The notes under the pieces: model-generated
The model's input: only the letters and a program-made list of their open reading frames with translations
Told to the model about the DNA's origin: nothing
The model's database searches: none
Translations under genes and position numbers: made by a program
Shown: positions 4,092 through 39,100 of the stretch, one piece after another
Layout: the number at the start of each line of letters is the position of its first letter
Numbering within the stretch: position 1 is the first letter of the stretch
DNA from: Psammoneis japonica
Lineage: Eukaryota
DNA length: 64,000 bases
Direction of reading: 5' to 3'
Assembly (NCBI GenBank): GCA_008632985.1
Contig: QPGO01000295.1
Location: 1-64,000 of the forward strand

Positions 4092-6122
4092 ATGGGCGCC
4101 AAGCGAAAAAAGTTGGAGGAGGAAGCAGAAAAGCTCCTGCGCACACTGGATTCTTGTCGAAACGTCAAAAGACAGTTCGGTGTGGATTCCCACATTTGCC
4201 AGTTCGAAAACAAGATCAAGACAAGGTGTCGAGCGGTTCAAGAGATCCTAGAGCAAGAAACCATCCCAGAAGATGAAGGCCACAATTCTCCATTCCTGCT
4301 GGCACCGCCTGCTTCTTGGATTGGGCCCCGAACACATGCGGGACAGGATGAACCACCATCAATTGTGGGTGATGCCGAAAGGGCAAGTGACCAGAATGGA
4401 GGCCCGGACAAAAAAGCTGCAGGTTCAAGAGAAGAAATAGAGCCAGAGCAAAGATTGTCAGCATCCAAACAGCTTGAGGCAGAGGAACCAGCAGCAGCAG
4501 AACTGGACGAAACTCTGCTCTCATTGCCGGCCGAGTGTGAGAACGAAGTGATTGAGCCGTTTAAAGCCAAGTCAACCGGGGACGAAGAACTGGACAATGA
4601 AATTCCCATGTTTTATGAATTGATTCGAAAAAGTAAACTCACTCTTGCTCTCCAAGGTTTTGGGTCGAAACAAAAGCTGAAAGGCGACACAGAAGTGCAA
4701 AATGCAGGCCCAACTAAAAGATCATTGTCTGACGGCTTTGATCCCGCCAGCCTGCGCATAAAAGGAAAGACCATCCAGAAAGGGCGTTGCCATCAGCACT
4801 TGGAAGAAAGCAACAGATGCAGTCTTGATGTTGTTGTCGCAGTCAAACACTTCTGCACAGAGAAGATTGCAATGTGCATGTTGGTGACACACTTTGAAGA
4901 GACAATCCCAGGTCAACACAAGGATGACTTTGGCTCACATCTTCATGAGTTGTTCCCTCACGTTCAAGTCGAAGGCACTGACGTCGAATTGCCACTGGAC
5001 CCATTTGGGAAAGAACAGTTGAGCGAGATTCCAGATCTTGTCTGTCAGCCACAGACAGAGGGGAAATGGCATCAGTTCGCCCACTGCTGGTCCAAACCAA
5101 GAACCAGAGAGGCGAAGCGATCCGAAAAGCACGTGTTGGATCTATTTGCAGGGTGTGGTGGCATGGGGATCGGGTTTTAGAGATGCGGATTCAAAGTGGC
5201 CAAAGCGATTGAACAAGACACTGCAGCGGTCGAAACTTTGTCTGCAAATGGCTCGCACACGTCCATTTTTGCCGGCGACATTCGCGTGTTCCTCGAACGA
5301 TGCCAAAAAGATCCAGAATGCAAGGCAAGCATTGGTTCCATCGACCACGTGCACGCTTCTCCTCCTTGCCAAGGCTTTTCCGGCACGAACCGCAATGGTG
5401 GCAAGAATGACGAAGAAAACAACCAGCTCTCGCTTTCCTTGATCGATGCAGTGAAGGAGTTTCGTCCTGTTGCAGTTTCTTTCGAGAATGTTCTTGGAAT
5501 GTGGAAACGCAAACATTTCAAGTACATCATGAGAATCGTTGCAGATCTGATGCGCATGGGACACCAGGTTTGCTGCTCCTGCCTCCACGCTTGTGATTTT
5601 GGAGATGCACAGAAGTGTCCAAGGCTCTTTTTGTTTGCGGCACACATGTGTGCCCATGTGCCACCCTTGCCACAAACGACACATGGCAGCGAGGCCGATC
5701 AACTGCCCCGTGTCTCGGTGAGAGATGTTCTTCAGCCATTTGAGGGTCGGTTCGAAGAGGACCCCTCGCTGCAAGAGGACATGGAAAGGCAACGTCTTGC
5801 AGCGGAAGCCCTTGCTCCGGCTGTGAAGACAGGAATGCCGCTGATTCACTGTTTTGAAAATTGCCGTCTTTGTCCATCCAAGTTGAAAGCATTGCAATCC
5901 TTTCCGGCAGACTGTCGATTCTTTGGAACGGCGGCGGAGCAACGAAGGCAAATCGGAAATGCAGCACCTGTGGAGCTCGCCACGGCTGTCGCCCACGTCT
6001 TTCAAGCATCACTGGAGTTTGCGCACTGCAATGAAAGCAGCAGAGAGCAAGGCAGAACTGCGTTTCCTTGGTGTTTCTCACATCCCGCGCCCACGTTCGG
6101 AAGAGAAGGACCGCTCTTTTGA
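4092..6122 (+). pseudogene. C5 DNA cytosine methyltransferase, DNMT4/RID(Masc1)-like, with an in-frame TAG at 5178-5180
   Basis: Motif I LDLFAGCGG, motif IV HASPPCQGFS followed by GKNDEEN, motif VI FENV, motif VIII QKCPRLFL (QKRPRLFL in other copies), motif IX ALQSFP, motif X RQIGNA. ORFs 3999-5180 and 5196-6122 are in the same frame. Confidence 0.88.
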
Positions 6123-7686
6123 GGATCAATGAATGAATGAGTAAAACGAGGATGCATTGCTCTGCTTGGTTGTTTTGCAGTTTTCAACAGCGTGCGAATA
6201 AATGGACGGCACACGTGCCCTCCATTGACACTCTTGTGCGAGATCTTGGGGCATTCATCATCATCTGCCAGGCCTGTCGACAGTCGCCTCATGCGAGTGC
6301 ATGGCACCACTCTTGAGGAAGCTTCAACATGGAAGGATGCCTTTTTAGTTCTTCAGAGATTTCTGACTGTTGCTGCAGTTTGGTGCCCTCTAGAGCGAAA
6401 CGTTTTAATTCACATGTTTCACACAAGTGATCCTCGGATCAGCCCTTTCGTCTTTTCCACCGTTTGCACTCTCAGCAGCAGCACTGGAACTACACTGCTG
6501 CTTGTTTGTTTTGTGGTTTCCAATGGCGCACCAAGGCAACCAGCAGATGCACGGCACACGCACCAACTGTCGACAGTCGCGTCAAGCGAGTGCACGGCGC
6601 CACACTTGAGCCCTTGGCCTTCCTGTCTTGAAAGTTTCAGGGCGCAGACTGTTGGGCTGAGGCATCTCGACGACAAGCAGCTGCATCAAACAGAGTGCTG
6701 CGCCAACGATGAATCCCCCCGTCATGGTCTTGCCTTTTTTGTGCGTCGTCCCTCACCGCGCAGTGGTTTGATGTTTTGGGGGTCATTGCACTCAGAAAGA
6801 CCGACAGACTTCTGGTTCAACAGACAGACAAGTGCAAAATCGATGCACTGTCATCACGATTTTGCACGGGACTGGCTGTTGCACTGCCAAAGCAATGAAT
6901 CAGAAACCCAAAATCAATTTGTTTTGTTTTTAAGGCATTTGCACAATGAGCTGATGGATGGCAAGATGATTGGACTTTCTGAACTTTTTTTGGTGCTGGA
7001 AACTTCGTACGACAGTGATGACAGCAAGCAACGTGCCCCAGAATCTTTTGTCATTGCAGACATTTGGGTCGTTGAGTTTGAGAATGCACTCAGTCATGAA
7101 AGTCCCCGAGAGCAACCTCTGTTTCAAAGCAAAACATTGCACCAATGCCGTGGTCTGTTTTCTGTTTTCCGACCTGTTGCTGTCATGCATTCATCGTTGA
7201 ACAACTGAGACTTCATCAGGGGGACTTTCTTTGCATGTTCATGTTTTGAGCAGTGCAGTCAATCATTGCAACAAGTGCCCATTGCAAAGTCATCCTGTGA
7301 GAGCTTGAGAAAAATGTCATCATCATCATCAGCATTGACAGCAATTTGTTGCACAAATTGCAACAAATGCACGACTGTCAATCTGCCCAACATTGTGCTG
7401 CTGTGCGCTCATTGTGCACATGCCTCAAGAGAGTTGCACTCCTTGTTGAACAGTTGCCTGTGATTGGATGCTCAAAGTTTCTCCTGTGCAGACACATGCT
7501 TCTCATTGTTGCTCAGTTTCTGGTCTGCAGGCACACCAACTCTCATTTTCAATGCACTCTTTTCTCCATTTTGGCTCACCCATCTGTCATTTCTCCTCAC
7601 TGCATTGTGCATCCTCACAAGAGTTGATTGCAACATCCTCAAAGGCGCACCTTGAACTGGAAGTGCTGTCATCTTCAAGGAACTTG

Positions 7687-8049
7687 GATGAGTTCCAGCC
7701 CTGGGTGGGACTCTGTGTGTGACATTGACCCTGACCCCAACCCCAACCCTGTCAAGCAATGAAAATGAAAAGAATTGCCAACAGAAAAAGAGGCAATTTT
7801 GTGAATGTGTCTCCTCCTTGGCGAGTTTGCCCGGGTGTGTTCTGCAGACATCAAAGAACACACCCAGCCCATTTTCATTTTCACAAATGTTGAAAATGGA
7901 AAGCCTTTGGCTTTGCAAAACAGGCAGCATGAAACAATTTCATAGAAACTCACACACAGATGTGCACATGTGTGACACGCAGCACAATCCAAAAAACTCT
8001 TGATGCCACAGTTCAGCAGTGCAAGGTCCCACCTGAGCTGGAGCATGTC
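7687..8049. mobile_element. MITE of the GACG(C/T)GTTCCAG-TIR family, degenerate
   Basis: Ends gatgagttccagccctgggtggga ... ggtcccacctgagctggagcatgtc; internal similarity to the copies at 38715 and 50518. Confidence 0.8.
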
Positions 8050-14226: not shown

Positions 14227-14639
14227 CAGAAGTTGGGTTTTGTTTTGTTTTTGACATTCTGATGGTCATTGTGCCCACACAAAAAACTCAATGCGCATGC
14301 TCTGGTTGTTCCCATCCACGCAACATGCTGTGCAAATTTGCTTGACTGTGGTGCCAATGCTCGCATGTTGCTGAAGCGATTGCCCAGTGAATCAGAACAA
14401 TGGGCAAACTCTTTTTGAGACAGGTCTTGTTCTTGAGATTGGAGCTGCAGCTTGACATCATGGCAGCACCAGCCACCACATGCAAGGGCACTTGAGAGGA
14501 GAGCATCATTTGTTCTGTGCTGCCAGCATTTTCCACAATGTTGGAGGTTGGGGTCAGGGTCAGGAAATCTGCTGTTGTGGTGACCAATCGGCCAACAACC
14601 AGGACTTGAATGTCTTTTGGTGCCAGCATGAGAGCAAAA

Positions 14640-16555: not shown

Positions 16556-16737
16556 CGAGTGAATCTGGATGGAGGGCCATGTCACAACTGGTGATTGGTC
16601 AAGACACATGGCTCGAGTGGTGCTGCAGCAACATGCTCACAATCTAATCAGGTTTAGGTTTGCATTGACAGTGTCGCTGCTTTCTGTTTAGACTTAAGGT
16701 GTCGTGCTTGTTCTTTTGTTGCATCGAGATTTATTCG
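16556..16737 (+). repeat. 5' LTR of copia copy 1
   Basis: Direct repeat of 23173-23354; inverted termini cgagtgaatct...agatttattcg; followed by ctttgtcagagcca (iMet PBS-like TATCAGAGCCA with TA->TG). Confidence 0.88.
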
Positions 16738-17152
16738 CTTTGTCAGAGCCAAGACGAAAAAGACAGAGCGAAATGGTTTTGAGTGCAATTCGTCATGGAC
16801 GATTGTTTGTTGTGTTGTTTGCTTGGAACGTGCAGCTGTAGAAATGGCGCTGAACTGCACGCGATGTGTCAGAATTCGGATTGATGCACACGATGATGCG
16901 TCTCGTGTCGCTTGTTGCAACATCCACAAAAACAGCTTGCAATGGCAATGCTCGCAAAGATGGTCACTGTCCTCACATGTGCAACGGGTGTGAAGGGACT
17001 GCGGTGTTGGGCGACATGCCCAAGCGTGTGCTCAACAATGTTGGTTGACATGAATGACACAGGACTGATCACCCTGGCGTCAGGTGGCTGTGTGAACCCG
17101 TTGTCACAACACAGAGAAAGTGCAGCCATCATGACCATGCAGACTCACAGCT

Positions 17153-18676
17153 GTGTGTTCCCGGCACGGGACCTTTGCACCCTTTCTCCATTGTGGGATG
17201 GCAGCAGCGGCAGCACCAGCACCAGCACTTGCGGCGTCAGCCGCGGCAGCTGACGTTGACACAGTTTTGCAAGTTTGTGGTGTTGCTGACCAGAACGCAA
17301 GGGCGAGGTTGGTCTTCTGTGAAGGGTTCACGACTTTGGAAAACATCGCAGTGATGGAGAGTGATCACGATGTGGAAGACATGGTGCAGAGGGCGTCTCG
17401 TCGCATGGTGGCCGACGGACGTGTGACTCTTGGGGCTGTTCAGATCAAGAGCTTGCAGGCGCTAGCATGGTGGGGCCAGGATTTGCTCAAACGGAATCAG
17501 CCATTGGTTGCGGCAGACTTCAATGCAGGAGCTGTGGCTGCGGCCTGGAATGGTGGGCGTGTCGAAAAGGAGCGCACGGATTCGGACGCGTCGGCAAGCG
17601 GTCTCGTAAAGTTCAAGCCCGATGACTTCGATGTGTGCGAAGATGCTTTCTTGAATCTCTTGGCACAGAAATTTGGCATGTTGAAAGAACCCCTTTGCCA
17701 TGTTGTAAGGACAATGCCAGCTCTGGCTGCATTCACGGATGCTCGACAACAGCGCATGCACCAGATGCCATTGAATGGCGCCACACATGATGAGGACAAC
17801 CGCTTGGTCGACACGGCAGGATGGGCATGGATCGAACCGTTTGACATGACAGAAGACGGACGTGGAGCATTCGACGCATGGGTTGACCATTGCAATGGAC
17901 AGGGCAAGTTGAGCAAGCGCATCCATCTGGCTACGGCAACTGTTGAAACCTTGTTTCACAAAAAGGAAGGATCGCTCCCGTTCGAAAAGTTCAGTGACAA
18001 ACTTGCCGGTGCTTTCGCCACTTTGAACAAATCACCGGACGACCGCAAATCTGAACGACAGAAAGTTGACATTCTTCTAAAAGGGATCCGAGCGGATGAC
18101 ACTCGTCTCATTGCAGCAACGGCTGTCATTGGCAGTCAGCACCCTTGTGACTTCGCGGGGGCATGTGCTTGTTTCTCATCCGAAGTCTCTCGTTTGCATG
18201 CAGGTGCTCAGTTGGAAGCCCGGCATTGCTCGAAGCACAAGATTTCTGAAATGAGCCATGGTGGCGGCGGTGGCTGTGGTTTTTGTCGAGGTCGCGGTCG
18301 CGGAGGAAGATTTGGACGTGGGGGTGGACGCGGACGTGGTGGCCGTCAAGGTGGAGGTGGCGACCACACTGTGATGATCAATGGAGTTGATGCATCCGAC
18401 CCTACAAGGAGCTTTAGCGCTCAAGAATGGGAAAAGTTACAGTGTGATGGAGGCATGAGCTGCGTGTTCCAAGCTCGCGAACGAATGGGTCATCAAGGAC
18501 GCGATGGGGGTGGCAGGCATGCAGCTGAAGCCCAAGTCCATCAAGATGGCCAAGGCCAAACCCAACAACAGGATCAGGAGCAAAGGAGCAGCGGGCATGG
18601 TCGCGGCACTGACCGGGATCGCGGTGGACGCAATGGACGCGCCTTCGGTTGGGGAGCCTGCAATGGTTCCACCTGA
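17153..18676 (+). CDS. gag: Copia gag (hypermutated, no Tyr; the true start is probably the Met of MAAAAAP)
   Basis: 507-aa ORF with DGRGAF...HCNGQG, RGG-rich region and INGVDASDPTRSF.EW motif typical of diatom copia gag. Confidence 0.85.
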   Translation: MCSRHGTFAPFLHCGMAAAAAPAPALAASAAAADVDTVLQVCGVADQNARARLVFCEGFTTLENIAVMESDHDVEDMVQRASRRMVADGRVTLGAVQIKSLQALAWWGQDLLKRNQPLVAADFNAGAVAAAWNGGRVEKERTDSDASASGLVKFKPDDFDVCEDAFLNLLAQKFGMLKEPLCHVVRTMPALAAFTDARQQRMHQMPLNGATHDEDNRLVDTAGWAWIEPFDMTEDGRGAFDAWVDHCNGQGKLSKRIHLATATVETLFHKKEGSLPFEKFSDKLAGAFATLNKSPDDRKSERQKVDILLKGIRADDTRLIAATAVIGSQHPCDFAGACACFSSEVSRLHAGAQLEARHCSKHKISEMSHGGGGGCGFCRGRGRGGRFGRGGGRGRGGRQGGGGDHTVMINGVDASDPTRSFSAQEWEKLQCDGGMSCVFQARERMGHQGRDGGGRHAAEAQVHQDGQGQTQQQDQEQRSSGHGRGTDRDRGGRNGRAFGWGACNGST

Positions 18677-18685
18677 CTCCTTGGG

Positions 18686-21600
18686 GTGGCAACAGCCATT
18701 GGAGCATTGGCGTGTTTGGCGCACTTGTCGTTTTTGCTTGTGTTGCTCTTCTTGCTGTTGACTGAACCCCACCCAACATCTCGTTTCAAAGGAAAGGCGA
18801 CAAAGAGGCACATTGCCATGACATCAAAACGTGTGATCCGATCGACGAGTTCTGCACAGATGACAAATTTGACGACACCTGGGTTCATCACTCGAAATGA
18901 ATGTGACACTCACGCAGACACTTGTTGCGCTGGGGCGAACTGGAAGCTCATGGAGATGACAAATGAAGTGTGCGAGGTGCGCCCATTTCTGGACTCTTGT
19001 GAGCCGATCAAACAGATTCCTGTGGCACGTTGTTGCACCGCATGGACAGATCCGGAAACGACTCGTGAATTTTTGCTGGTTGGTGATCAAATGCTCTGGT
19101 TTGGGACCGACATGGAACACTCACTTTTGAATCCTAACCAACTCAGTGCGCACAACATGCCCGTGCACGACAACCCTTGCGACACCCGAAACGGATTTGG
19201 CATTGAAGCTGACGAAGCTTTCATCCCTTTCAATGCCACGGGGACAATTGTGTCTTTCAAGTCTCGTGTTCCGACGGATTGGGAAGTGCAGAACTTGCCA
19301 GTTGTGCTGTTGACAGGTGACGCATGGGATCCAGCACAGACAGACATGGGCTTGCCGGAGAGCACTAGAGAGCAGGCGGAGATGCGCACCATTCGATCAT
19401 TGACCTCTGGCATGCGACAAGAACAGGTCTCGGAATTAAGGAGCGAGAAGGCAAAGTCCCAAGCAGCACGCTGGGGCGAGGTCGAAATGCAACTGTCGTC
19501 TGCATCTCCTGTCTGTCAACTTCAATCGTTTTGCGACAGGCTTGTCAGCTCTGTGAACGTGGCTTGCACATGTCATGACGACGTGGACAAGAGGCAGATG
19601 GCAGTCAAAGACTTACACAGCAAGGATCGGCACTCGAAGGTTGACGCTGAAGAGCTGGCCCGAAAATGGAGTGTCGGTTTAGAGACGGCAAAAGATGCTC
19701 TCAATGCAACAACTCAGCGCAGTGTGCAAACGGCGACCCAGCCGATGTCACGAAGAGTGAGGGTGGATCATCTTGACTTGCATCGGAAGCGTCTGAAAGG
19801 AACATGGTTTGTGGACACTTTGATGTCCAAGGTGAAGTCTTCACTCGGCAACACGTGTGCCAATGTTTGTGCTCAGGGCAAATTCGTGAAGGTTGTGCCG
19901 ATGACCGCCAGGTCGGAGGCAGGTTTGTCTCTTGTTGAATTCACAGATGACGTGGGTGTGCCAGAACATCTCATGTCAGACGGGGCAGGAGAGTTCACTG
20001 GAAGGAGCACCGAATTTGTGAGACACACACGACTTGTGAGAACACAATTGAGAACATCAGAGCAGGGTTGGAAGAACCAGAACCAGGCAGCGGAGCACGA
20101 AATTGGTTTCTTAGCCAAATGTTGGCGGCTGCAGATGACGAAGAAGAAGGTGCCAAAGCGATTGTGGGATTTTGGTCTTTTTTGCGAGTCGGAATTAGTG
20201 TCGCGCATGGCAAGAGGCAGGGACAAGAGGACTGGATGTGAAGAGGTCACTGGGCAGACACCAGAGACAGGCGAGCATTTGGATTTTGGTTTCTACGACA
20301 TGGTGTGGTGGTGGGACAGGCCCAACAAGCCGAGTGCAACTGACAATCCTCGAAGGCTTGGACGGTGGCTTGGTGTCTCACACAAAGTTGGCTCGGACAT
20401 GTGCTGTTGGATCATTGCGGAAAGCGGGAAGATTGTCTCCAAAACATCGGTCGAGCACGTGACACAGGCTGACATGGTGCAACCGGACATTCGCGTCAAG
20501 GTCGACAACTTCAATGAGCAGCTGGAGAAGCGATTGGACGACACTGACTTTGTCTTAAAAGGCGATGAAGCTGCACCCGCATTCGTGTTGGACGATCTTG
20601 CAATTGACGGCAACCTCGGTGTGGAATGTGAGGAGGGCATCACGCCAGAGGACAAGGAATGTGGCAACATGCTGTCACCCGACGAGCGACCAGACGATGA
20701 CGACGAGCAGGCAATCGATCAACACCTGGGAATGGAACTCATGTTTGACATCGGAGCCGACGGCGAGCGACGTGGTGTTGCAACAAAACGTGCAAGAGGA
20801 CAGGATGGGCGTCCAATTGGGACTCGGCATCAAAACCCATTGTTTGACACTCGCGAATGCGAAGTGGAATGTGCCGATGGAACCACAGACAAGTGCACAG
20901 CCAATGTCATTGCCGAGAACATGTTTGCTCAGGTCGACAGCGAGGGCAACCAGCACTCTATCTTGCACGAGATGCAGGACCACGAGAGGAGTGACGATGC
21001 GGTGTCGATTGCTGACGGCACCGTACGAACCGCTGACGGGAAGGAGAAGAAGAAGATCACAACAAAAGGATGGAAGTCATTGGTCGGATGGAAGGATGGC
21101 AGCTCATCTTGGGTCAAACTCAAAGATCTAAAGGACTCCAACCCCATTGAAGTTGCTGAGCATGCTGTTGCGAACAGGTTGACGGAGGAACCTGCTTTTG
21201 CTTGGTGGGTCACACATGTCCCACGCAAACGGAATCGCATTGCATCCAAGGTCAAGAAGAAGTGCTGGCGCACGACTCACAAGTTTGGGATCCGATTGCC
21301 CAAGTCCACGGAGGATGCTTTGCGGATTGATCAGGAAACGGGGACAGATCATTGGGCTCATGCAATCAACAAGGAGATGGCAAAGGCAAAGGTGGCATGG
21401 CGCGAGCACGAAGCTGAAACCCCTCAAGTCGTCCGGGAAGGCAAGAGCACAACTTTGCGTGGTTGTCAGGAGATCAGGTGCCACATGGCATTTGACATTA
21501 AAATGGATTTCACCAGAAAGGCAAGGTTTGTAGCTGGCGGACACACGACAGAGGCCCCAGCATCGATCACTTGCTCTGGCGTGGTTTCCAGAGACAGTGT

Positions 21601-23179: not shown

Positions 23180-23354
23180 ATCTGGATGGAGGGCCATGTT
23201 GCAATTGGCGATTGGTTGAGATGCATGGTTCGAGTGGTGCTGCAGCGACACGCTCACAATCTAATCAGGTTTAGGTTCGCATTGACAGTGTCACCACTTT
23301 CTGTTTAGACTCAAGGCATCATGCTTGTTCTTTCGTTGCATCGAGATTCATTTG
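23173..23354 (+). repeat. 3' LTR of copia copy 1
   Basis: Matches 16556-16737 over 182 bp; differences are mostly TA or CpG transitions. Confidence 0.88.
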
Positions 23355-24239
23355 CATGCATCTGTCTGTGTGCATGTCCAAGTGCATTTCTCAGTTTGCA
23401 ACAAGTCTTTTCATGGCTTGATGCATGCACAGTTTCTGCTCATTTTGTGCACTGTGTTCTGCTCAATTCTGCAAGATCTCTGAGAGAGCAGCTCTGCCAG
23501 AAAAGTTTTCTGTCTCACCTCACAATTTGAGCATCTGGCTGCAGATGGAATGTGCGGGTGTCAGACACCAGTTTCCTGGCATTTCTCTTGTAAAATGATC
23601 ATGTGGCAATTTTGTGCAATTTCAAAAAAAGATGAGGTTGAATCGAAAATGCAACAGATGCTTGCAAAAGTGCAACACAACATGAGAAGCAACAATGGCA
23701 TCCATGTGGGGATGAAAACAGCATCCACACCAATTTGAGGCATGCACACACAACAATGTTGGCACACAACAAATTCAACTGATGTGCCATTTGGCTCACT
23801 CGTGTCTTTCCAAGTGCTCCAATCGACCATTCTAGATGACGTCATTGTCATCAACATTCCTTGTAGGTGCTGTGAGCAGTTCATGCAGAAAATTGCAAAA
23901 ATTGCTGGTGACAGTTTTCCACTCATGGGCACACACACACACAACACCTTTCTGCATGTGCCCATTGCATGGAGAATGATGGTGTGCCCCATGGAGAATG
24001 ACGGTGTGCCCCATGGCCAGCGTTGCAGAGGTGACACATTCTGGCTGCTCTGGGTGGAACCATGCTCCACTGAACTGCAACATTGACAGTTTTTTGGATT
24101 GCACCACAACAATGGAAATCATCGTGGCTCTCAGAGTCAGTGCACAGAAACTGTGCAGAAGAGCACCAGCACCGTCAGCAAATTTTTGTCACTTTGTTCA
24201 TTTGCATGTGTCCAACAGACAAATGATGTCATGTGGGAT

Positions 24240-25689: not shown

Positions 25690-26246
25690 GACGTGTTCCA
25701 GTCCCAGGTGACGCACAAAACGACAATCGGATTTTGAATATAATTTATGTATATTTTAGTGTATATAGCATTTTAATAAAAATACTTAGACGGATTGACT
25801 TTTATAGGCTCCTAGAGTATGAACATTTAAATAGTATTTTGAGGGGTATTCAAATCCTCATGGGATATGTATCATAAACTTCCTCAGTAGGCTCAATACT
25901 GATTGTACGTCAGTGGATTTATACTGAGATTTTTTTGTAGGTAGAAAACCTACCAAGTAGCATCGTAGAAAGATATATTTAGGTAACATCCAAATAACGG
26001 CAATATTTTCGCCGAAAATCATCCGTTGTGTTACGAATCTTTTAACGCAATGAAAAACATAGATGGCACAATTACAATGATGTTGCAACACTCACACGAG
26101 TCTTGTTAGTGTTGCAAAACATTTATATTTGCATAAATCTATACTTTTGGTGGTGAAAGTTCGATCGTAAGTTAGGGACCGCGCAAAAATCGCGCAAATG
26201 TCGTTTTTGTGCACGACATTTGGTTCACGTGCGGCTGGAACACGTC
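25690..26246. mobile_element. Young TA-rich MITE (GACGTGTTCCAG TIR, 4-bp TSD gtgt) nested in an older related MITE
   Basis: gtgt|gacgtgttccag ... ctggaacacgtc|gtgt; TA-depleted homologue at 46657-47186. Confidence 0.9.
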
Positions 26247-27902: not shown

Positions 27903-30822
27903 ATGAAACTCTTTAAGCAAAACCGGTTGTGCGGCTGGATCGTTGCGGCTTCAGTCCTCCTTCGAGCCTGTGAGATTGTTGAGGTTCTTGCTGGGACGGA
28001 GCCATGGAACGACGAGGTAAGCTCCTATAAACATCTCGTATCGACCGAATGTTCAATGAACCAAGAACACAAAGCTTTGTATTATGTAGCTGATCTTGTC
28101 CCCTTCTTTAACCTCGTAGGCAACGCCGCATGAAGCAAGCGATTCCAATTCACGTGGTCTTCAACCTGTACCGGTATCAGATGGGGTCCAAGGAGGTGGT
28201 TTCGGAGCATATGATAGCAACGAAACCGAGAAGAAGCCGCTTTCTACTGGAGACTTCCATCTACGAGCAAGTGCACGGCGTCTTCAACATCTATCAGATG
28301 GGGTCCACGGAGGCACGTTTGTAACAGATGATACCAACGATCCAGAGACGGTGAGTTTTCATCGACGAGATTTGCACAACATCCACGTTGAATTCTGCCT
28401 CATCAAATATCGGTTTTCGCTTTGACTCTGTCAGCATGCTGCTCCATACGAAGCCCCAGATGCCAAGGCGGAGCGGGGATCAGGACATCAGGACCCTTCC
28501 GTTGCAGCACGACGTCTTGGCCCGGGAATGTCCGTGGTGTCCAGGACGCGGTTGCCGCACCTGGCTGAATACCCACCCCGCGAAGTGCATATACACGTGC
28601 AAGGACATTTCGCGTATCTCGGCTGTTACTTTTCTAAAAAAGTGTTAATCTACGACATTTCGGATCCGGCTGCGCCAAGGTATGTTGCGTCAGTCGACAC
28701 GTGCTCTACTCTTCATGGGAACTTCATTGTGGACATTTGGGTTTCTGGCACTAATTTGTGGACGGCACACCGAAGGGGAGAAATTACCATGGTTGACATC
28801 TCTGATCCCGCAAATCCAGTGACGCCGCCAGAATGCTTCTCGGAAACATATTGCCGCAAGGGCTTGATATCGTCCCATCCGTCAAATCACGGTTCTTACT
28901 TGTTTTACTCCGGACGATCCTTATCGATGTACAGCATATGGCATGAGCCGCCATCTCTCAGGCTGGAATATCGTAGCCCCCCCGTAAAACCTTCGGGTGC
29001 CGATGAGGTGATTCTCTCTCGCTATAATGAATATCTATACTGGTTGACCCGCAAGGGGCCTGTTGATGCCACCGTCGACATATACAAGATAAATTATCCG
29101 ACATACACTTACGAAAAACCAAACATTACTCTGGTTGGAAAACTCAGTCCACCAAGCGGCACTACACCTCCGCACGAAATGATTCTTGGCTATCATGATA
29201 GAATTTATGGGATAGCATTGAATGCCACGGGTCGTGGCGAAGGATTTGTTATCTATGACGCTGCCCGTGGTGAAAAAGATACGAACCCAGAAATCCTTGG
29301 GCGTGTCTCCAACCACCCACTTGCATATCGGATGGCACTTGATGACGACGGCGAAGTGCTTTACGTTGGGGATCACGATGGGAGTGCAAAAATCAGTGCC
29401 TACGACGTTCGAGATCCCACCTCGCCACGGTTGATTGACTCATATGACCTACCACCGGCCACTTATGAACTTGGATATGGCGGCTCCTTGTACCAAATGG
29501 GCGGTTTGTGGTACCATAACGCACATGTCTATACAGTCAACGGAGATGATCTCGTCATTCTCGGCTCTTCACACTCTCCTCCAGATCCGTTCGCAAAGTA
29601 TTCGGGGTCCCTTCCTTACCCCGTGCTCTTTATACATGGTTGGGGAGCCGACAAAAGGTTCTGGAAGGGCCATGATGTTCGCGGGTTTGGTGTATATTTC
29701 AAACCTGATACAGGCAGCATACCCGATCATGTCGCAAGAGAGTTTGAGGCCTATCCGTATCTCAATTATGCAAACAGGGCAACAGCCGAAAGGCCGTCTA
29801 GCGAAAGAGATGGCTATAAATACAATGGCATGGAATTCTTTGAGTCGTCGGATCCAAGGATGGATGTTGTATCAATGGCGTTGGAGTTGTCTGACAAGAT
29901 CGTTGACGTGTTGGACAAGTATTACGGTGTGGGAAGGTGGCGAAGCATTCAGAATGCAAAAATAATCTGCGTTGCCCATAGCCAGGGTGGTCTTGCTCTT
30001 CGGTGGGCAATCCACAGTGCTATGGCCACGGACCTCGGAAATCCTCTTAACCACATTGACCACATCATCACCATCGGTACACCCCACCTGGGGACATCTA
30101 TGATATTAGAAACCAGCGGCATCAAGGGGTTGGATGACATGAAAGCCATCATTGCACAGAAAAAGAAGGTCGAAATGAAAGGTGATGCCACTTGGGGTAT
30201 CTTCAAAATGGAGGGTAAGGCCGACTACATCTTTGGCATATACAAGGTTAAGGTCAAGAGGTTTGGGATAACATGGAACACGATCGAATACGATGCGTCA
30301 AAATACAAAGAAAATGTTATGAAACTCCTCGAAATCGGTGGACCTGATCTCGCCATGGGATCCTCTCTAGTCAAAGAAATGCAAAGCCATTACCCAAGCA
30401 ACACATTCACAGGAAAGAAGATACCACTGAGTGCGTTGTACAGCCATGTTGGAGATTATTTTTTGGAGAGGATTTTTCTAGAATTCAAGCGAGCGATAAG
30501 GAAGGAGAACGTGGACAGTGCAAGTGATTGGGGAGCGGGCAACGAAGTGGGAGAAATAATTGACGAAATGTTTGGCGACATCATGCCTTATGTGAAGCAG
30601 TTTGACAAGGATTGGTCAGCACATTCTGACTTGGTTGTTGATGTGAATTCTCAGATTGGGAGTGGGTTGTTTGATTCTTCCCGTGACCCCTTCAGGGCAA
30701 TCAACATCGGGACGGCCCTCCATGCAGACCATCGAAGCCCACTCTCAAATGAACTGCTGCCCGGCCAGAACAGCCTTGCCCAAAAGGAGGTTGCCAATGC
30801 AATTCGTTATCCACCCCGTTGA
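27903..30822 (+). CDS. Secreted protein with LVIVD-repeat beta-propeller and alpha/beta-hydrolase (lipase/PGAP1-like) domain; exons 27903-28016, 28120-28350, 28435-30822 (~910 aa)
   Basis: Hydrophobic N-terminus; two phase-0 GT-AG introns join in frame; repeats IYDISDPAAP, VDISDPANP, YDVRDPTSP; hydrolase motifs PVLFIHGW, AHSQGG, TIGTPHLG; normal TA and Tyr content. Confidence 0.85.
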
Positions 30823-33547
30823 GAAAAAGGGAGAGTGTTCACCAGGCAGCACACAAACAACACAAAACCCAGGAAAAGCAAAAGAAATTCTCTGTGCCAC
30901 AAAAGAATCCAGGAAAATCTCAATGCATAAACACGCTTGCTTGCCCAAACGAAAATTCAGCCACTTTTGTGTTTAGTTGCAAAGATGCCCTTTTCATTTC
31001 ATGCATGCACTTGCTCAGGAAAGACAAGCTGTTGCAACACAAAGATGAGACACTTTCCGGCAAGAAAGCTGTGTTGCTCATTCATGTCCATTTTTCCATT
31101 TGTGCAGATTTGCCACATCTAACTGATCACATGCTTGGCACACAAGCAGTCATTCACAGAGCACATCAGGCTGCTCTGCTTGGCAAAAAACAGGTGCAGT
31201 GACAAGTGGCCTTGCCAATGCTCTGTCACTGGGACATTTCGCTCTTTTTTGTCCTTGTGCATCTCCTGCTGTGGGAGTCCTCTGTCACAAGCCATTGCTG
31301 GCAATTGCCAGCTGCAATCAGCAAGGTGCATGTGCTGTCACAGACCATTCACATTGTTGTCAACACTCACACTCAAGTTGGAAATTCCATTCCACTGATT
31401 TGTCGCAGCACCTCAAAATCATTTTGAGTCCACAACACATCTTTTTTGCCACTTGCATGACAAGCAGCTCAGCGAACTTGAGAGCAAGTGCACAAGTTTC
31501 AAAGTGTGCCTGACTGCCATGATTTTTTGTTTTTTCACAGCAGTGCACACACACAAAGGCTTGGGCAACATTTGTCACAAGCACCATCTCCTCATTTTGT
31601 CAAATTTTGCTCACTCTTTGCACCCAGCAGAGAGCTGAGTGTGATTTGGGCAGCAGCGCAGTGCAGCAGCAACATTTTCACAAGGGACAAACAAGCAAGA
31701 TGGAGCTGTGCAAATGCTTGCACAAAGTTGCCAATGGAGCTCTTCATGGGGCTGCCTTTGTGGGCTGCCTCTTGAGAGCTGTTCTTGCAGAGCTGATGCT
31801 CTCTGAGTGGCATCTTGGCAACCAACCAGTCTGGTCTCTGCTCTGAAAGGACAATTTGTGCTTTTCACTGTGAGAGCACTGGCTGGCTCAAAAAGTCCAA
31901 ATGCAGCTGATGTTTGAGCTTCGACTCTCTGTGCTCCTGTGAGAGCTTTTGGCATCAGCAACAGACTGCTCCATGTGGTTGAGGCAACACCAGCACATGC
32001 CAAAAATGAGCTTTTTTGGCAACACACAGGTTTCTACACAGATTGGGAATGAGATGGCAACACCTCCTGTGTGAAAACACTTTTTCGGTTTTTGGTGATT
32101 CCCAAACACCGGCTCTGGCGGATGACCAAAACAAACAACAAACACGCAATGGCGTGTTTGAATCCATTTCATGATGGCAGTTGTCAGCCAATCATGACAC
32201 AAGTCAATGCAGTCAACACTTTTGATTGAATGTCATCTGCAGCATGAAAGACAAGGTGAAATGTGGTGCCAGCACCGCAGATCAAGTTGTGTCAGAAAAG
32301 TGCTGTTCTTGTGTCATGTTGTCACAAATGCAAATCACAAGGCAACTGGAGTGATGGCTGAGGCAAAAGTGGGGCCCTAAAATGTGGCGGATTGAACAGT
32401 CACATTTTTTCCTCTCTTCCATGTGTCTCATGTGCAGAAGACTGTGGTCTGTTTTGTGGGGCCCATTTTGTGTGGGCACAAACACAAGCCCTGAGGCAAC
32501 ATGAACAACAGCTTCATTTTGTCTGAATTGCGTCTTTTCAAGACAAGTTGTCAGTCCATTTGGGAAGATGATGCCAAGTGCAAAAAAAAAGCTGTGCATC
32601 CCAGGATGCTGTCAAATGCTCTGTTTCCTTCAACCAAGTGACCTGCTGCACTGTTGGTCAGTGTCTCCTTGGCTTGCCCATGCAAAGAAACTGCGAGTTT
32701 TGAGGTCCCTGGATGAGACATTGCAGCTGCAAAAATGAAGGTCCTGATTTTTTGCCCCAAGTTTTTGAATTGGGTGCTTGTGTGGAAAAAAGTGTCAAAA
32801 GGTGCAGTTTCTTTCACTCAACAGGCAGCTGAGACAGTGGAGAAAGTGTCTGCATGCTTGAGCTGTCAAGTGTTTTTGTCTTGGAAGTGCCTTTCATGGC
32901 CCTTCCGAGATGACATTGAGCAAAGAGGCAACAAATGAGCAATCGCTGAAATGGAACATTTCCGTTGAGCAACACACTTGCAATCACGTGCATGCCGACC
33001 CATGTGGTTCGCTGACAAAACACAATGCTTTTGTGTGATAAAGGATTCCTGATTCCCATGATTTTCAATGAAAATGTGCGCAGAAACGATTTTCACAATT
33101 TTCGTCTTGCACCACCCCAAACAACGGTTTTTTGGCATTGGTGACAAGAGTGACTGCGATGGAGGTGTGGCTGGGTGTGATTCTCACCATGCTCAGATTG
33201 GGTGTGTCTCATGACCTGGGCATTTGTAATTCACACATGATCATTTCAAAAGGTCTGTGACAACACTCAATGCATTCAGGAGGACATCGCTCGAAGGTCA
33301 ATCAGTGTTGGTTTGAGCACGTGGGGCATCTTCAACCACTGAGAATGACGAATCGAAGAATGTCTGGTGAAGGTTCTTGTTGTTTCTGCAGCTGTGACTC
33401 ATCAATCACCACTCTGTTTAATTCCAGCGGCTGGCGCAGCAGGCAACCAGCTCAACCACACCTTTCTTGCACTTTCTTGTGATTCTTTCCAGTGGAAAAA
33501 ACTTGGGACAGTCAATTCTCTTGACTGAGAAGTCTTCCTCCTCTTTC

Positions 33548-35957
33548 TCACTTGCGCTCCTCTTTCTCTTTTTGGTGATTTCCTTTCACGATCTTGATGA
33601 GTCTTTCCTTGTCCGCGACAAGTTCCTCATTGACAAAAAGTTTCATCGTTCGCTCTTGGTGAGTGTCAGTGACACCCCACCAATCTCTTCCATGGGGGTG
33701 AGTGCTCCTGATTTGTTTGTCTGCAAGCATGTCTCTGGACAGACCGTTCAAAACCTTTGTCGCAAGTGTGGCCGAGAAGACTCCTCGCAATTTCTTGGGG
33801 TCACCATCGAGAAACTTCTTGCAAAACATCTCTGCCATCCTCCGCGTGTTCATGTGGGTCGAATCATTGTGGCAGTTGCTTGAGTCGCAGAGAATTGCAA
33901 GAATGGCTTGCGCTTCTGGGCATTGCCAGTGCTTGTCTCTTCTGGCAACTTCTTGCTGCTCAACACCATGGGCGGCGGCTCACATGCTCTTTGATCATGA
34001 CAATCTCCAATGTCTTTGCATCTTTTCCGCTGTCCGGTCTTGCGTGGTGTGTGACGCAAGCAGTTTGTCTCTGCTGGGAGAAGGCCAGATGGACCTTTGC
34101 CATGCAGCACATGGCCTCAAGTCTCTCCTTGACTGTTGTGTTGGATCACTTCGTCCGTGTTTTTCCTGCGTGCCATCCCAACTTGCGAGTCTCCCTGGGG
34201 CGCAAGGTGGATGACGCTTTCCCTTCCATTGGCGGCCAAGAGACTCTTTCCATTGAAAGTCGCATGCCCAAGTGCTTGAATCAAGTTCTCAATGCTGAAA
34301 CCAATGGCGAGGTGCATCACAAGGTGACTCAGAACTCGTGTGCTGGATCAATGTGACATTGCTCTCCGCATTTTTGAGTGGCCAAACACAAAAATTGGCA
34401 TCTTGCACCAAACATCGCATCAACCTTGGCGACAACCTCTGAGACTTGGCAGTTTGAAATGCATGAGAAGCCACATTCTTGACCTGGCAAGCGGTGAGAC
34501 ACCCCTCGCCCCACGCAGGTGACAGCCACAATTGGCTTGCCGAATTTCTTGCACAAGCGCTGCCTTCTCAAAAATGTTGCCTTTGACCCATGCCCTTCGT
34601 GCGGTGCAATCGAGCAAGAGGACCCCCGGTTCATTGTCACCCAATGCTTGGTCATGCATCATCTTCATCTTGTCGTTCGTGCAGGGGATGGTGGTGCCGA
34701 TTTTGGTGGTGGAAGGAAACCCAGCTCTACCTTGGAAGCCAATGTCATCGTCAAAAGTCTTTCATCTTGCACACTTTGATCGCACACAGGTTCCTCAGCT
34801 GTTTTGATGTTCTCTTCGCTCATGTGGTTGATGTTGTTTTCCAGGCAGATGGGCTTGCCATTCGAGTCTTTCAGTGGCTCCACATTCTCAAGACCTGAGC
34901 AATCCGAGTGCGTGCGCAGTTTGAACAAATCAAGACTTTGCTTCAACTCATGCTCGCAGAGCAGCACAATTGGTTTTGGCGCAGCGGTGGCCATGATTTT
35001 CAAACACGGTTTCAACTCCAACAGCCGTTTCATTGCCAACTCCATCTTTTGAGACCCTTCCTTTGTCCTGAAGAAAGCATCTGCCTGTCCATGATCGCGC
35101 AAACTTGAACTCTCTCTCATCACGTTGTCGCAGCTCTTGGCAGCGTTCCAAAACCTGAGCTCCCAAATTCATCTTGCTGGCCACATCGGGAAACACCATC
35201 GCGATTCCATTTGAAAACCTTGCCTTGATGTTTGGTTCCTTCGGCTCAAGCCAGAAGCTTGTGGTGCAATGCCAGGCTTTCCGACTTGTCCTTCGTGAGA
35301 ATCATTGCTGGAACTTTCATCATCAACCACGTGGCCATGACGACAGCTTTGCAATCAGATTTGCCGCTTTGGGTTGGCCCGTGAGTCATTCGGTCAGGGT
35401 GCCTTTCCTGCGCCAGGATCGCAGAAGCGGTGTCGGTCACTGCTTCATCAATGTCAAGTGTTTGGCACAACTTCAAATCTTCGCACAAGTTTTGCTGCAC
35501 AATTTGGAGATGTGCTCTGCCAATGCGTCCTTCTTGTCAGTGTCCTTTGCAATCTCATAAAAAATGTGTTCACCTTCTAGGTGCATGTTGAACATGGACT
35601 CTCCAGTGGTCTCTCCAGTGAGCTCGTGCTGAAGCTGCAGCATCTTTTCCGTTTTCTTCTTCTTGGTTTGTTTTCTTCAAACTCTTTGAGTGCGTCGGCA
35701 TCAAAGTCTTCTCGCTCGTGGCAGTTGGGGGCATCCCCGACTTTGTCTGGTGCAGCGTGAAACCACAGTGCAAAGCTGTGAAGAGCTCTTTGCGCATGGG
35801 CCTTGACCCCACGGAGTTTTTGATCTTTGAGCTGCACAAAGCTGCGCACGAGATCGTCAATCAAGCGGATGTTGCAAGAAGAAGCCAGTGTGGCTTGTGT
35901 TTCGAGGGGTGTGTCCAGCTCTTTGCACACATGAAGGAGATCCAGTGGCAGAGCCAT
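33548..35957 (-). pseudogene. SF2/Z1-like helicase pseudogene, copy 2
   Basis: MALPLDLLHVCKEL..., GPTQSGKS, ENLIQALGHATF; multiple frameshifts. Confidence 0.7.
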
Positions 35958-36169
35958 TTCGTTTCACTGGATCTACAATGTCTGCAACAGGTCCTTGAAA
36001 AACTGTCTCAATCTGCTTTGTGGCAGTGAAAATGGGAAAGAATGTTGATTCTCAGCGGGCTGCACTGGCGGAGCGACGACGACAAATTCTTCTTGAAGAG
36101 AATCTTTCACCAAAGGTGCTGTTCTTCATTCCTGTTTTCCTTGGACCGGGGCCCCATCATTCGATCACA

Positions 36170-39100
36170 ATGGGCACCAAGCAAAAAAAGTTGGAGGAGG
36201 AAGCAGAAAAGCTCCTGCACACACTGGATTCTTGTCAAAACGTCAAAAGACAGTTCGGCGCGGATTCCCACATTTGCCAGTTCGAAAACAAGATCAAGAC
36301 AAGGTGTCGAGCGGTTCAAGAGATCCTAAAGCAAGAAACCATCCCAGAAGACAAAGGCCACAATTCTCCGTTCCTGCTGGTGCCGCCTGCTTCTTGGATT
36401 GGGCCCCAAACACATGCGGGACAGGACAAACCAACATCACTTGTGGGTTGTGCTGAAAGGGCCAGTCACCAAAATGGAGGCCCGGACGAAAAAGCCACAG
36501 GTTCAAGAGAAGAAAAGGGCCAGAGCAAAGAGTGTTGGCATCCAAACAGCTTGATGCCGAGGAACCAGCAGCAGCAGAACTGGACGAAACTCCGCTCTCA
36601 GTGACAGCCAAGAACAAGAACGAAGTGATTGAGCCATTTAAAGCCAAGTCAACCGGGGACAAAGAACTGGACAATGAAATTCCCATGGTTTGTGAATTGA
36701 TTCGAAAAAGTAAACTCACTCTTGCTCTCCAAGGTTTTGGGTCAAAACAAAAGCTGAAAGGTGACACAGAAGCGCAAAATTTGGGACCAACTAAAAGATC
36801 ATCATATGACGGCTTTGATCCCGCCAGCCTGCGCATAAAAGGAAAGACCATCCAGAAAGGGCATTGCCATCAGCACTTGGAAGAAAGCAACAGATGCAGT
36901 CTTGATGTTGTTGTTGCAGTCAAACACTTCTGCGCAGAGAAGAGTGCAATGCGCACGTTGGTGACACACTTTGAAGAGACAATCCCAGGTCAACACAAGG
37001 ATGACTTTTGTTCACATCTTCATGAGTTGTTCTCTCACGCTCAAGTCGAAGGCACTGAAGTCGAATTGCCGCTGGACCTGTTTGGGAAAGAACTGCTGGG
37101 CAAGATTCCAGATCTTGTCTGTCAGCCGCAGACGGAGGGGAAATGGCATCAGCTTGCCTGCTGCTGGTCCAAACCGAGAACCAGAGAGGCGAAACGATCC
37201 AAAAAGTGCGTGTTGGATCTATTTGCAGGGTGTGGTGGCATGGGGATCGGGTTTGAGAGATGCAGATTCAAAGTGGCCAAAGCAATTGAACAAGACACTT
37301 CAGCGGTCGAAACTTTGTCCGCAAACAGCTCGCACACATCCATTTTTGCCGGCGACATTCGCGTGTTCCTCAAACGATGCCAAAAAGATCCAGAACACAA
37401 GGTGACCATTGGCTCCATTGACCACGTGCACGCTTCTCCTCCTTGCCAAGGCTTTTCTGGCACAAACCGCAATGGTGGCAAGAATGACGAAGAAAACAAC
37501 CAGCTCTCGCTTTCCTTGATCAATGCAGTGAATGTGTTTCGTCCGGCTGCAGTTTCATTCAAGAATGTTCTTGGAATGTGGAAATGCAAACACATCAAGC
37601 ACATCATGAGAATTGTTGCAGATCTGACACGTGTGGGATGCCAGGTTTGCTGCTCCTGCCTCCGCACTTGTGATTTTGGAGACGCACAGAAGCGTCCAAG
37701 GCTCTTTTTGTTTGGGACAGGATAAACCACCATCAAATGTGGGTGATGACGAAAGGGCAAGTGACCAGAATGGAGGCCCGGACGAAAAAGCTGCAGGTTC
37801 AAGAGAAGAAATGGAGCCAGAGCAAAGATTGTCAGCATCCAAACAGCTTGAGGCAGAGGAACCAGCAGCAGCAGAACTGGACGAAACTCCACTCTCATTG
37901 CCGGCCGAGTGCAAGAACAAAGTGATTGAGCCGTTTAAAGCCAAGTCAACTGGGGACGAAGAACTGGACAATGAAATTCCCATGTTTTATGAATTGATTC
38001 GAAAAAGTAAACTCACTCTTGCTCTCCAAGGTTTTGGGTCAAAACAAAAGCTGAAAGGTGACACAGAAGTGCAGGGTGCAGGCTCAACTAAAAGATCATC
38101 ATCTGACAGCTTCGATCCCGCCAGCCTGCGCATAAAAAGAAAGACCATCCAGAAAGGGCGTTGCCATCAGCACTTGGAAGAAAGCGACAGATGCAGTCTT
38201 GATGTTGTTGTCGCAGTCAAACACTTCTGCACAGAGAAGAGTGCAATGTGCACGTTGGTGACACACTTTGAAGAGACAATCCCAGGTCAACACAAGGATG
38301 ACTTTGGCTCACATCTTCATGAGTTGTTCCCTCACGCTCAAGTCGAAGGCACTGACGTCGAATTGCCACTGGACCCATTTGGGAAAGAACAGTTGAGCAA
38401 GATTCCAGATCTTGTCTGTCAGCCGCAGACAGGGGAAATGGCATCAGTTCGCCCACTGCTGGTCCAAACCGAGAACCAGAGAGGCGAAGCGATCTGAAAA
38501 GCGCGTGTTGGATCTATTTGCAGGGTGTGGTGGCATGGGGATCGGGTTTTAGAGATGCAGATTCAAAGCAGCCAAAGCGATTGAACAAGACACTGCAGCG
38601 GTCGAAACTTTGTCCACAAATTGCTCGCACACGTCCATTTTTGCCGGCGACATTCGCGTGTTCCTTGAACGATGCCAAAAAGATCCAGAATGCAAGGCGA
38701 GCATTGGTTCCATCGACATGTTCCAGCTCCAGGTGGCACCTCGTACTGCTGAACTGTGACACAATTTTTTTTTGTCATCCGTCGCATGTTTCGCACGCAC
38801 ATTTCTGCATGTTCTGTTACAAAAAATTGCTCCACACTGCCTGTTTTGCGAAGCCAAAGGCTTTCTGTCATCTCCACTTGTGTCAATAAAAATGCGCTGG
38901 GCACATTCTTTAATGTCTAAAGAACACACCCGGGCATGCTGCAAAGAATGTGCTTCAAGTGTGGAGGAGGAGATGCGTTCGCAAAATTGCCTCTTTTTCT
39001 GTTGACGATCATTCATGTGTCCATTGCTTGACAATTTCACTGCGGAGCTCGCACGCAGAATTCCACGGGCCCAATGTCACAAAAAGTCCCACCCAGGACT

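What the first reader, a model, noticed from the sequence alone, without database searches (positions are those of the whole stretch)
4340..37730. Three paralogous copies polarise the mutation and show that duplicated non-TE-like genes are also hit
The same site reads gaTGaa (4349), gaCAaa (36427) and gaTAaa (37723), so an ancestral TA was resolved independently on opposite strands. Copy 1 vs copy 2 peptides show HVYKEL/HVCKEL, ALYSF/ALHSF, MMYDQ/MMHDQ and FKYIM/FKHIM. Mutation therefore continued independently after duplication and is not restricted to retroelements, which argues against RT error or RNA editing as the source.
Basis: seen in the sequence. Interest (0 to 1): 0.7.

Follow-up and report, generated by a model that had tools for sequence, protein, structure and literature searches.

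The report
TA-erased diatom helicase–methylase gene copies
Dead copies of a conserved diatom gene pair (a DNA motor and a DNA methylase) each had nearly all their TA steps rewritten to TG or CA separately, in the chromosome itself, which extends a little-known DNA hypermutation process from one alga to diatoms and shows that being duplicated is not what triggers it.

Summary
In detail: TG (4349), CA (36427) and TA (37723) are homologous, and all four peptide pairs exist. One site cannot set the direction, and about half of the differences between copies are ordinary CpG decay. With a fourth copy (contig C301), TG/CA double differences exceed CpG expectation (58 vs 8.9; 61 vs 15.1). At codon positions 1-2, 17 of 21 trace to Tyr. 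A likelihood fit gives TpA mutation about 280-300 times background, nearly all after the copies split. Both strands are hit, and DNA MITEs lose TA one-way, so this is in-place DNA mutation, not RT error or RNA editing. The unit has no TE hallmarks. It is a head-to-head SF2 helicase plus C5 methyltransferase pair, also found in Seminavis, Chaetoceros, Amphora and intact on C59. Duplication alone is not the trigger: on C10 a duplicated ankyrin gene is erased (27 doubles), while neighbouring duplicates keep TA (0 doubles). The process matches TpA hypermutation in Bigelowiella natans (2026 preprint); this scan noted it before on other DNA of this genome. New here are the rate, the timing, the controls and the gene pair.

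The parts
903..6747 (.). Copy 1 of the two-gene unit; TA o/e 0.08, CG o/e 0.70
1329..3811 (-). SF2 helicase-like gene (GLTQSGKS, IMDEAD, QALGHATFNG); one frame change near 2450-2550; Tyr 0.3-0.7%
4092..6122 (+). C5 cytosine methyltransferase gene (PF00145; SPPCQ, FENV), head-to-head with the helicase; in-frame TAG at 5178-5180; Tyr 0.3%
4349..4350 (+). Site reading TG in copy 1
33124..37713 (.). Copy 2a (matches 903-5637); several stops and frame changes; TA o/e 0.04; left end set by a multicopy repeat of about 520 bp
36427..36428 (+). Site reading CA in copy 2a
37714..40574 (+). Piece 2b (matches 4340-6747). The part matching 4340-5637 is copy-1-like, the rest copy-2-like; short microhomology at the left junction; the right end abuts Copia-derived sequence
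37723..37724 (+). Site still reading TA in piece 2b
38718..39108 (.). MITE-like insertion of about 390 bp with terminal inverted repeats and a 9-bp target duplication, inside 2b
28426..30822 (+). Control: LVIVD/alpha-beta hydrolase gene, TA intact (o/e 0.65); vs its C301 counterpart 99 shared TA, 1 single, 0 doubles
51334..54185 (-). Control: reprolysin-FN3 gene, TA intact (o/e 0.60); vs C371, in 50900-54399, 127 shared TA, 3 singles, 0 doubles
57725..58110 (.). TA-rich MITE copy (27 TA); its relatives at 48554-48944 and 60943-61335 lost 14 and 21 TA with 0 gains
25692..26246 (.). TA-rich MITE copy (52 TA) inside erased flanks; its relative at 46789 lost 22 TA with 0 gains

Best explanation
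This is a diatom genome with a locally targeted mutator that converts the A of TpA to G (equivalently T to C) in chromosomal DNA on either strand, preferring TAY, inside sharply bounded silent domains. The helicase-methyltransferase pair was copied as DNA while its TA steps were largely intact. The copies then died and were erased separately, to 4-10% of the expected TA, while other sites diverged only about 1%. CpG decay ran alongside, about 8 times more slowly. Shown: direction, independence, both strands, DNA level, rate, non-TE targets, and that duplication is not sufficient. Inferred: the trigger is the silent, probably 5mC- or small-RNA-marked state of a locus. Proposed by analogy only: adenine deamination, as suggested for B. 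natans.
For: Doubles observed vs CpG-only expectation: 58 vs 8.9, 61 vs 15.1, 19 vs 4.6. Of 52 doubles scored against homologue profiles, 30 favour TA, 11 CG and 11 are unclear; at codon positions 1-2, 17 of 21 favour Tyr and 2 Arg. CG control sites give 17 TA vs 139 CG of 202. In 16 Tyr-dominated profile columns the copies hold 22 C, 13 H, 2 Y and 13 other residues among 50 codons. Likelihood fit on 742 YR sites: TpA hazard 1.23 and 1.30 per base and branch, background 0.0044, CpG 0.15; forbidding TpA mutation after the copy 1/C301 split costs 42.6 log units. Both outcomes occur in each copy, e.g. 52 TG and 47 CA in copy 1. TIR-bearing MITEs lose TA 14:0, 21:0, 22:0. C10 ankyrin pair: 27 doubles, 17 shared TA; adjacent duplicates: 0 doubles, 115 shared TA. 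In MITE and LTR pairs, YTAR is kept at 10 of 23 sites and RTAY at 2 of 37. Same signature measured in B. natans.
Against: No methylation, chromatin or RNA data were available; no RNA holder was listed. CpG loss does not always accompany TpA loss: the MITE at 48554 lost 14 TA and 0 CG, and the C10 ankyrin copies keep most CG, so 5mC may not be the targeting mark. The model assumes a root and one context factor. 11 of 52 doubles favour CG, close to the share expected from CpG decay. The enzyme was not identified. C301 may be an allele of copy 1 rather than a paralog.
Confidence: 0.8

Rival explanations
1. RIP-like homology sensing: duplicated sequence is detected by pairing and mutated because it is duplicated.
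For: All four copies of the unit are erased, while the divergent pair on C59, with no close copy found, is intact. The C10 ankyrin gene has two close copies found and both are hit. Both copy 1 and C301 were hit after their split, which suits a trans-acting signal.
Against: On C10 a 1.9-kb duplicate at 95% identity (about 99% over 1.4 kb) and a duplicated methyltransferase keep TA, with 0 doubles. TA-rich MITE copies persist among erased relatives. The B. natans target is single-copy.
Confidence: 0.12
2. Only methyl-CpG deamination; the TG/CA doubles come from CG, and the low TA is compositional.
For: CG singles are the largest class (105 and 117), and CpG runs at about 34 times background.
Against: Doubles are 4- to 6.5-fold above CpG expectation; they map to Tyr, not Arg; intact homologues have TA o/e 0.43-0.47 against 0.04-0.10 in the copies; no CG/TA doubles were seen.
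Confidence: 0.02
3. RNA editing or RT error during retro-copying produced the changes.
For: Much erased DNA in the window is Copia- or LINE-like.
Against: The unit has no RT or integrase and keeps two divergent genes with their intergenic DNA. Copy 1 and C301 share flanks over kilobases. Both strands are hit within one copy, and DNA MITEs are hit.
Confidence: 0.02
4. Same targeting but different chemistry: the T of TpA is modified (for example oxidised to 5-hydroxymethyl- or 5-formyluracil by a TET/JBP-type enzyme; chemistry recalled, not from a call) and read as C.
For: TA to TG/CA is symmetric, so the sequence cannot tell A deamination from T modification.
Against: No such enzyme was searched for here; the B. 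natans authors favour an ADAT2-like deaminase, also untested.
Confidence: 0.25

Closest known systems
TpA hypermutation of integrated NCLDV and virophage DNA in Bigelowiella natans (Mettrop et al., bioRxiv 10.64898/2026.01.13.699255; read parts 1-3 of 5 and found passages, supplements not seen)
   Same: TpA to TpG/CpA on both strands, at DNA level, confined to regions; TE-derived sequences are among its TpA-poor sequences.
   Different: Here a stramenopile; near saturation (o/e 0.04-0.10 vs 0.45 in the NCLDV insert); targets are TEs, MITEs and dead copies of nuclear genes; TAY preference; CpG decay alongside; inferred from copies, not measured per generation.
Fungal repeat-induced point mutation (RIP, RID/DNMT4-dependent; recalled, and passages in PMC9998398)
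   Same: Transition mutation that destroys repeats and extra gene copies in place.
   Different: Opposite direction (RIP creates TpA by C to T); duplication is not sufficient here; no link to the sexual cycle or to a methyltransferase is shown.
Diatom 'DNMT4' methyltransferases (Hoguin et al. 2023, PMC9998398; section 7 and passages read)
   Same: Diatom-wide C5 methyltransferase, mostly single-domain; one family member in this genome (C34) lies right behind a chromodomain ORF; nearest Atlas clusters are Ascomycota methyltransferases of 576-753 aa.
   Different: The helicase-linked enzymes form their own clade (95/92), apart from the C34 and C10 members. No reference DNMT4 or RID sequence could be compared. 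PMC12344493 (passages) places DNMT4/RID in fungi only. The passages read mention no helicase neighbour.
DEAD-Z1 helicase plus C5 methylase modules (bacterial CglI/NgoAVII type, recalled; giant-virus pairs in scan notes e1-5598243 and e1-5313678)
   Same: A two-gene pairing of an SF2 motor with a GxxQSGK Walker A and a C5 methylase; Atlas and fold look-alikes are NCLDV proteins and Z1 proteins.
   Different: No Pfam Z1 hit in 43 of 43 members; no nuclease in the unit; only 14-17% identity to the best viral folds; no relative in viral contigs; the pair sits among host genes in diatoms.

Membership tests
B. natans-type TpA hypermutation | A:T to G:C transitions focused on TpA | tested here: met
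B. natans-type TpA hypermutation | Both strands, DNA level | tested here: met
B. natans-type TpA hypermutation | Confined to regions, host genes spared | tested here: met
B. natans-type TpA hypermutation | Targets of viral origin | tested here: not met
   Targets are TEs, MITEs, an ankyrin gene and an algal gene pair with only distant viral look-alikes
B. natans-type TpA hypermutation | De novo rate per generation; same enzyme | not testable with these tools
   Needs mutation accumulation and genetics
Fungal RIP | C to T direction creating TpA | tested here: not met
   TA is lost one-way
Fungal RIP | Duplication is sufficient to trigger mutation | tested here: not met
   C10 duplicates at 85-99% identity keep TA; one locus pair only
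Fungal RIP | Needs a RID-type methyltransferase; acts in the sexual phase | not testable with these tools
   No genetics
Transposable element (the unit) | Transposase, RT or integrase gene | tested here: not met
   Pfam finds only the methylase in the unit's 6 ORFs scanned; helicase family is DEAD-like only
Transposable element (the unit) | Terminal repeats and target duplication | tested here: inconclusive
   None at the shared ends, but copy 2's ends are set by other insertions, so the true ends are unknown
Transposable element (the unit) | High copy number | tested here: not met
   5 DNA matches on 2 contigs, plus one distant pair on C59; counts are lower bounds
Diatom DNMT4 / RID | Groups with T. 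pseudonana DNMT4 or fungal RID in a tree | not testable with these tools
   No reference sequence at hand; the supplement searches did not name our homologues (11 of 23 files not searched)
Diatom DNMT4 / RID | Single DNMT domain, sometimes with a chromodomain; diatom range | tested here: inconclusive
   Fits the wider family; the Atlas lead points to Ascomycota enzymes
DEAD-Z1 restriction-modification | SF2 helicase fold | tested here: met
   AlphaFold model of homologue P0123, pLDDT 86.9; SF2 matches
DEAD-Z1 restriction-modification | Z1 domain (PF10593) | tested here: inconclusive
   0 of 43 Pfam hits; structural neighbours with Z1 at TM 0.42-0.48 by query
DEAD-Z1 restriction-modification | Linked C5 methylase | tested here: met
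DEAD-Z1 restriction-modification | Nuclease subunit | tested here: not met
   None in the unit; neighbours in other loci were read by eye only

The most novel reading that the evidence does not exclude
The helicase-methyltransferase pair is itself part of the diatom silencing and mutation machinery: a RID-like methylase and a Z1-like translocase of ancient viral or bacterial restriction origin, kept as a two-gene module, that marks foreign or repeated DNA for TpA erasure. The intact C59 pair would be the working copy, and its surplus copies would have been destroyed by their own system.
Probability: 0.08. Interest if true: 0.9.

Novelty: new variant of a known kind. Interest (0 to 1): 0.58.

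Why it matters
TpA hypermutation is in print, as far as my searches reach, only for viral inserts of one rhizarian alga. These copies show it in a diatom at about 300 times background, acting on TEs and dead gene copies in place. They also give paired hit and spared duplicates, which make the open question of what triggers the process directly testable. It predicts Tyr-to-Cys/His decay that will distort annotation and dating of diatom repeats. Separately, the conserved helicase-methylase pair, which I did not find described, gives an uncharacterised diatom methyltransferase clade a candidate partner.

Tried and rejected
Polarising from the single three-way site alone: ambiguous on the actual tree. 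Terminal repeats of the unit: none convincing. Strand-coordinated tracts (processive action): weak and inconsistent; runs tests gave p=0.28, 0.028, 0.14 and 0.33 for the four copies, 0.043 and 0.31 for the ankyrin copies and 0.76 for the LINE region, so no claim is made. Purifying selection between copies on transversions: none seen (10 synonymous vs 7.7 expected; 1 vs 2.0; 1 vs 1.1). Viral origin: no helicase relative in viral contigs; viral methylases only 25-35% identical; 0 of those 80 loci carry the helicase; no PHROG hit for 6 helicase queries; one marginal PADLOC hit among 6. A single-protein metagenome scan found nothing; the alignment scan did. No RNA holder listed, which says nothing on expression. 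Contig depths (about 30 for copy 1 and a second haplotype, about 48 for copy-2-type contigs) hint that C301 is an allele but are no copy number. The first script stopped early on a division error; its tables were redone. Fusions of distant helicase relatives to DNA-modifying domains: none among the 24 scanned.
Full report
Setting. The window is C297:1-64000 of a 91-Mb assembly. Named homologues of its genes are from diatoms, so the host is taken to be a diatom. TA o/e is 0.15 over the window, mostly 0.01-0.12 in 2-kb blocks of repeat DNA and 0.5-0.9 in gene islands near 28-30.5 kb and 51-55 kb; CA and TG are in excess where TA is missing. Domain borders are sharp, within a few hundred bases.

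Observation. The three readings and four peptide pairs are real. The anatomy differs from 'three paralogs'. Copy 1 is 903-6747. Copy 2a (33124-37713) matches 903-5637. Piece 2b (37714-40574) matches 4340-6747 and carries a 390-bp MITE with a 9-bp target duplication. Away from YR dinucleotides, the first 1.3 kb of 2b differs from copy 1 by 0.7-1.0% and from 2a by 3.1-4.1%, while its remainder differs from copy 1 by 2.8%. I infer that a copy-1-type patch was pasted into copy 2. On that tree the site at 4349 needs two changes from TA or from CA, so it does not fix the ancestor alone. A further copy lies on C301, which shares about 24 kb with the left half of the window at 91-99%. It lacks the 4349 site and may be the other haplotype: the gene at 51-54 kb also has a 99% partner, on C371.

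Separating TpA loss from CpG decay. Both give TG and CA. Copy 1 vs C301 (4551 columns): 58 TG/CA doubles, 14 TA singles, 15 shared TA, 105 CG singles, 155 shared CG, 24 other transitions, 15 transversions. Copy 1 vs 2a (4539 columns): 61, 11, 10, 117, 113, 46 and 66. Independent CpG decay predicts 8.9 and 15.1 doubles (Poisson p=8e-28 and 7e-19). I scored each site that mapped confidently onto profiles of intact homologues. Of 52 doubles, 30 favoured TA, 11 CG and 11 were unclear; at codon positions 1-2, 17 of 21 favoured Tyr and 2 Arg. Control sites with a surviving CG gave 17 TA, 139 CG and 46 unclear of 202; sites with a surviving TA gave 11, 2 and 2 of 15. Copy 1 proteins hold 0.3-0.7% Tyr, against 2.9-3.1% in the intact C59 pair and 1.3-3.2% in three other homologues.

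Rate and timing. A four-state model on 742 YR sites of copy 1, C301 and 2a gave TpA hazards of 1.23 and 1.30 per base on the two youngest branches, against 0.0044 for other transitions (about 280-300-fold; 0.43 of that at TAR). CpG came out at 0.15 (about 34-fold). The hazard before the copy 1/C301 split was estimated at 0 (log-likelihood drop 1.5 at 0.1 and 3.8 at 0.2). Forbidding TpA mutation after the split cost 42.6 log units. The ancestral TA content (11.4% of YR sites) corresponds by my arithmetic to o/e about 0.4, like the C59 genes at 0.43-0.47. The root position is assumed, but the result that TA was largely intact at that node does not depend on it. The flanks differ: the neighbouring LINE shows 16 doubles vs 8.2 expected, and the spacers 1 vs 1.7 and 1 vs 3.1, so they were mostly erased earlier. 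The unit was therefore a TA-intact island or a recent arrival that was erased later in each lineage.

DNA level. Each copy carries both outcomes interspersed (52/47, 46/39, 47/37 and 13/23 TG/CA). The unit keeps two divergent genes with their spacer and has no RT or integrase. TIR-bearing MITEs lose TA one-way: 14:0, 21:0, 9:0, 22:0 and 6:0 in the five TA-rich-versus-relative pairs (for the ends). RT error and RNA editing are excluded for these sequences. The TAY preference noted earlier by the scan is reproduced. Strand-coordinated tracts were not established.

What the unit is. The plus-strand gene is a C5 methyltransferase. The minus-strand gene is an SF2 helicase-like protein of an algal family found in diatoms, haptophytes and a cryptophyte. 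Its nearest look-alikes are uncharacterised giant-virus proteins and Z1-type restriction motors at low identity. Both genes are broken in all copies here. The pairing is conserved. An intact head-to-head pair (31-46% identity) lies on C59 with a Gypsy element between the genes. Seminavis Sro257_g100890 and g100900 are divergent and 349 bp apart by their source coordinates; Chaetoceros tenuissimus CTEN210_03823 and 03824 have adjacent tags; Amphora scaffold640 genes 1 and 3 share a scaffold. Of 14 metagenome loci, 7 are 5 kb or longer, and 4 of those 7 carry the methylase within about 3 kb (3 divergent, 1 convergent). L062 and L063 (near-identical) and L069 do not; 7 loci are too short to tell. 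Against a strict rule: the other two Seminavis helicases have no partner among my hits, and the methylase loci on C10, C28 and C34 have no helicase within the 20 kb fetched for each. All 11 linked methylases in the tree (8 shown, 3 inferred from equal contig lengths) fall in one clade of 23 rows (95/92), scattered among rows of unknown linkage. The family resembles diatom 'DNMT4' and, by Atlas features, Ascomycota methylases of RID size. That is a lead only; the papers disagree on whether diatom enzymes are RID relatives.

What triggers mutation. The LVIVD gene keeps 99 of 100 TA sites against C301, and the reprolysin gene 127 of 130 against C371. These may be alleles, so they show sparing of genes but not of duplicates. 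The C10 inverted duplication, about 65 kb apart on one contig, is a true test. The ankyrin gene, with two close copies found, shows 27 doubles and 17 shared TA. The adjacent duplicated methylase and an unknown gene show 0 doubles and 115 shared TA, including 1.4 kb at about 99% identity (p=3e-19). So non-TE genes are hit, but duplication is not enough. This rests on one locus pair. A silent-state trigger is the best inference; CpG loss often but not always accompanies TpA loss, so 5mC is not shown to be the mark.

Comparison and novelty. The signature equals that measured in B. natans, where the main target is a single-copy silent viral insert and an ADAT2-like deaminase is proposed (parts 1-3 of 5 and found passages read, supplements not seen; the text has no occurrence of 'diatom'). 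Four searches found no report of the process in diatoms, and three found none of the gene pair; the library lacks most subscription papers. The scan's own notes describe the process many times in this genome and similar two-gene modules in giant viruses; I used these as leads. Two metagenome contigs from other samples also show TA o/e of 0.0-0.17 in stretches of 1.5-2.5 kb, so the process is probably not confined to this genome.

Verdict. Observation confirmed; interpretation partly supported; a new variant of a recently described kind; interest 0.58.

Noticed in passing
G000:C59:363124-374718 (L024, L025): Intact head-to-head helicase and C5 methylase pair with a Gypsy element between them. 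The pair recurs in Seminavis, Chaetoceros, Amphora and 4 metagenome contigs.
   Followed up: yes
G000:C59:365652-371400: The Gypsy element is only partly erased: the gag region keeps TA (5-19 per 200 bp), while the pol region near 368000-369000 has 0-2 per 200 bp.
   Followed up: no
G000:C10:612222-620030 vs 680220-687390: Inverted gene-cluster duplication: the ankyrin gene is TA-erased in both copies with CG largely kept; neighbours are spared; 1.4 kb is about 99% identical, which suggests recent conversion.
   Followed up: partly
L061:10500-12000; L062:10000-12500: TA-erased stretches (o/e 0.0-0.17) in metagenome contigs from other samples; the L062 stretch looks transposase-like by eye.
   Followed up: partly
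window 25692-26246 and C301:11249-11801: The same TA-rich MITE family sits at two sites about 300 bp apart in C297 and C301, each with the other site apparently empty: independent insertions or a local hop.
   Followed up: partly
G000:C34:43385-45776 (L047): C5 methylase directly behind a chromodomain ORF on the same strand, like the chromodomain DNMT4 forms in PMC9998398.
   Followed up: partly
window 16556-23355: Copia-like element absent from the matching place in C301; its 183-bp LTRs are 87% identical and 16 of 18 difference events are at YR steps, so LTR dating would overstate its age.
   Followed up: partly
window 28426-30822 and 51334-54185: TA-intact gene islands inside erased repeat DNA: an LVIVD-repeat alpha/beta hydrolase (paralogs at 67-75% on four other contigs) and a reprolysin-FN3 protease. 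TA thins in the last 300 bp of the hydrolase ORF.
   Followed up: partly
G000:C34:48554-54315: TA-erased Helitron-like Rep and Pif1-type helicase ORFs with almost no Tyr (label by eye).
   Followed up: no
G000:C301:52000-54000: Tandem-repeat block with TA o/e 0.5-1.2 inside otherwise erased DNA.
   Followed up: no
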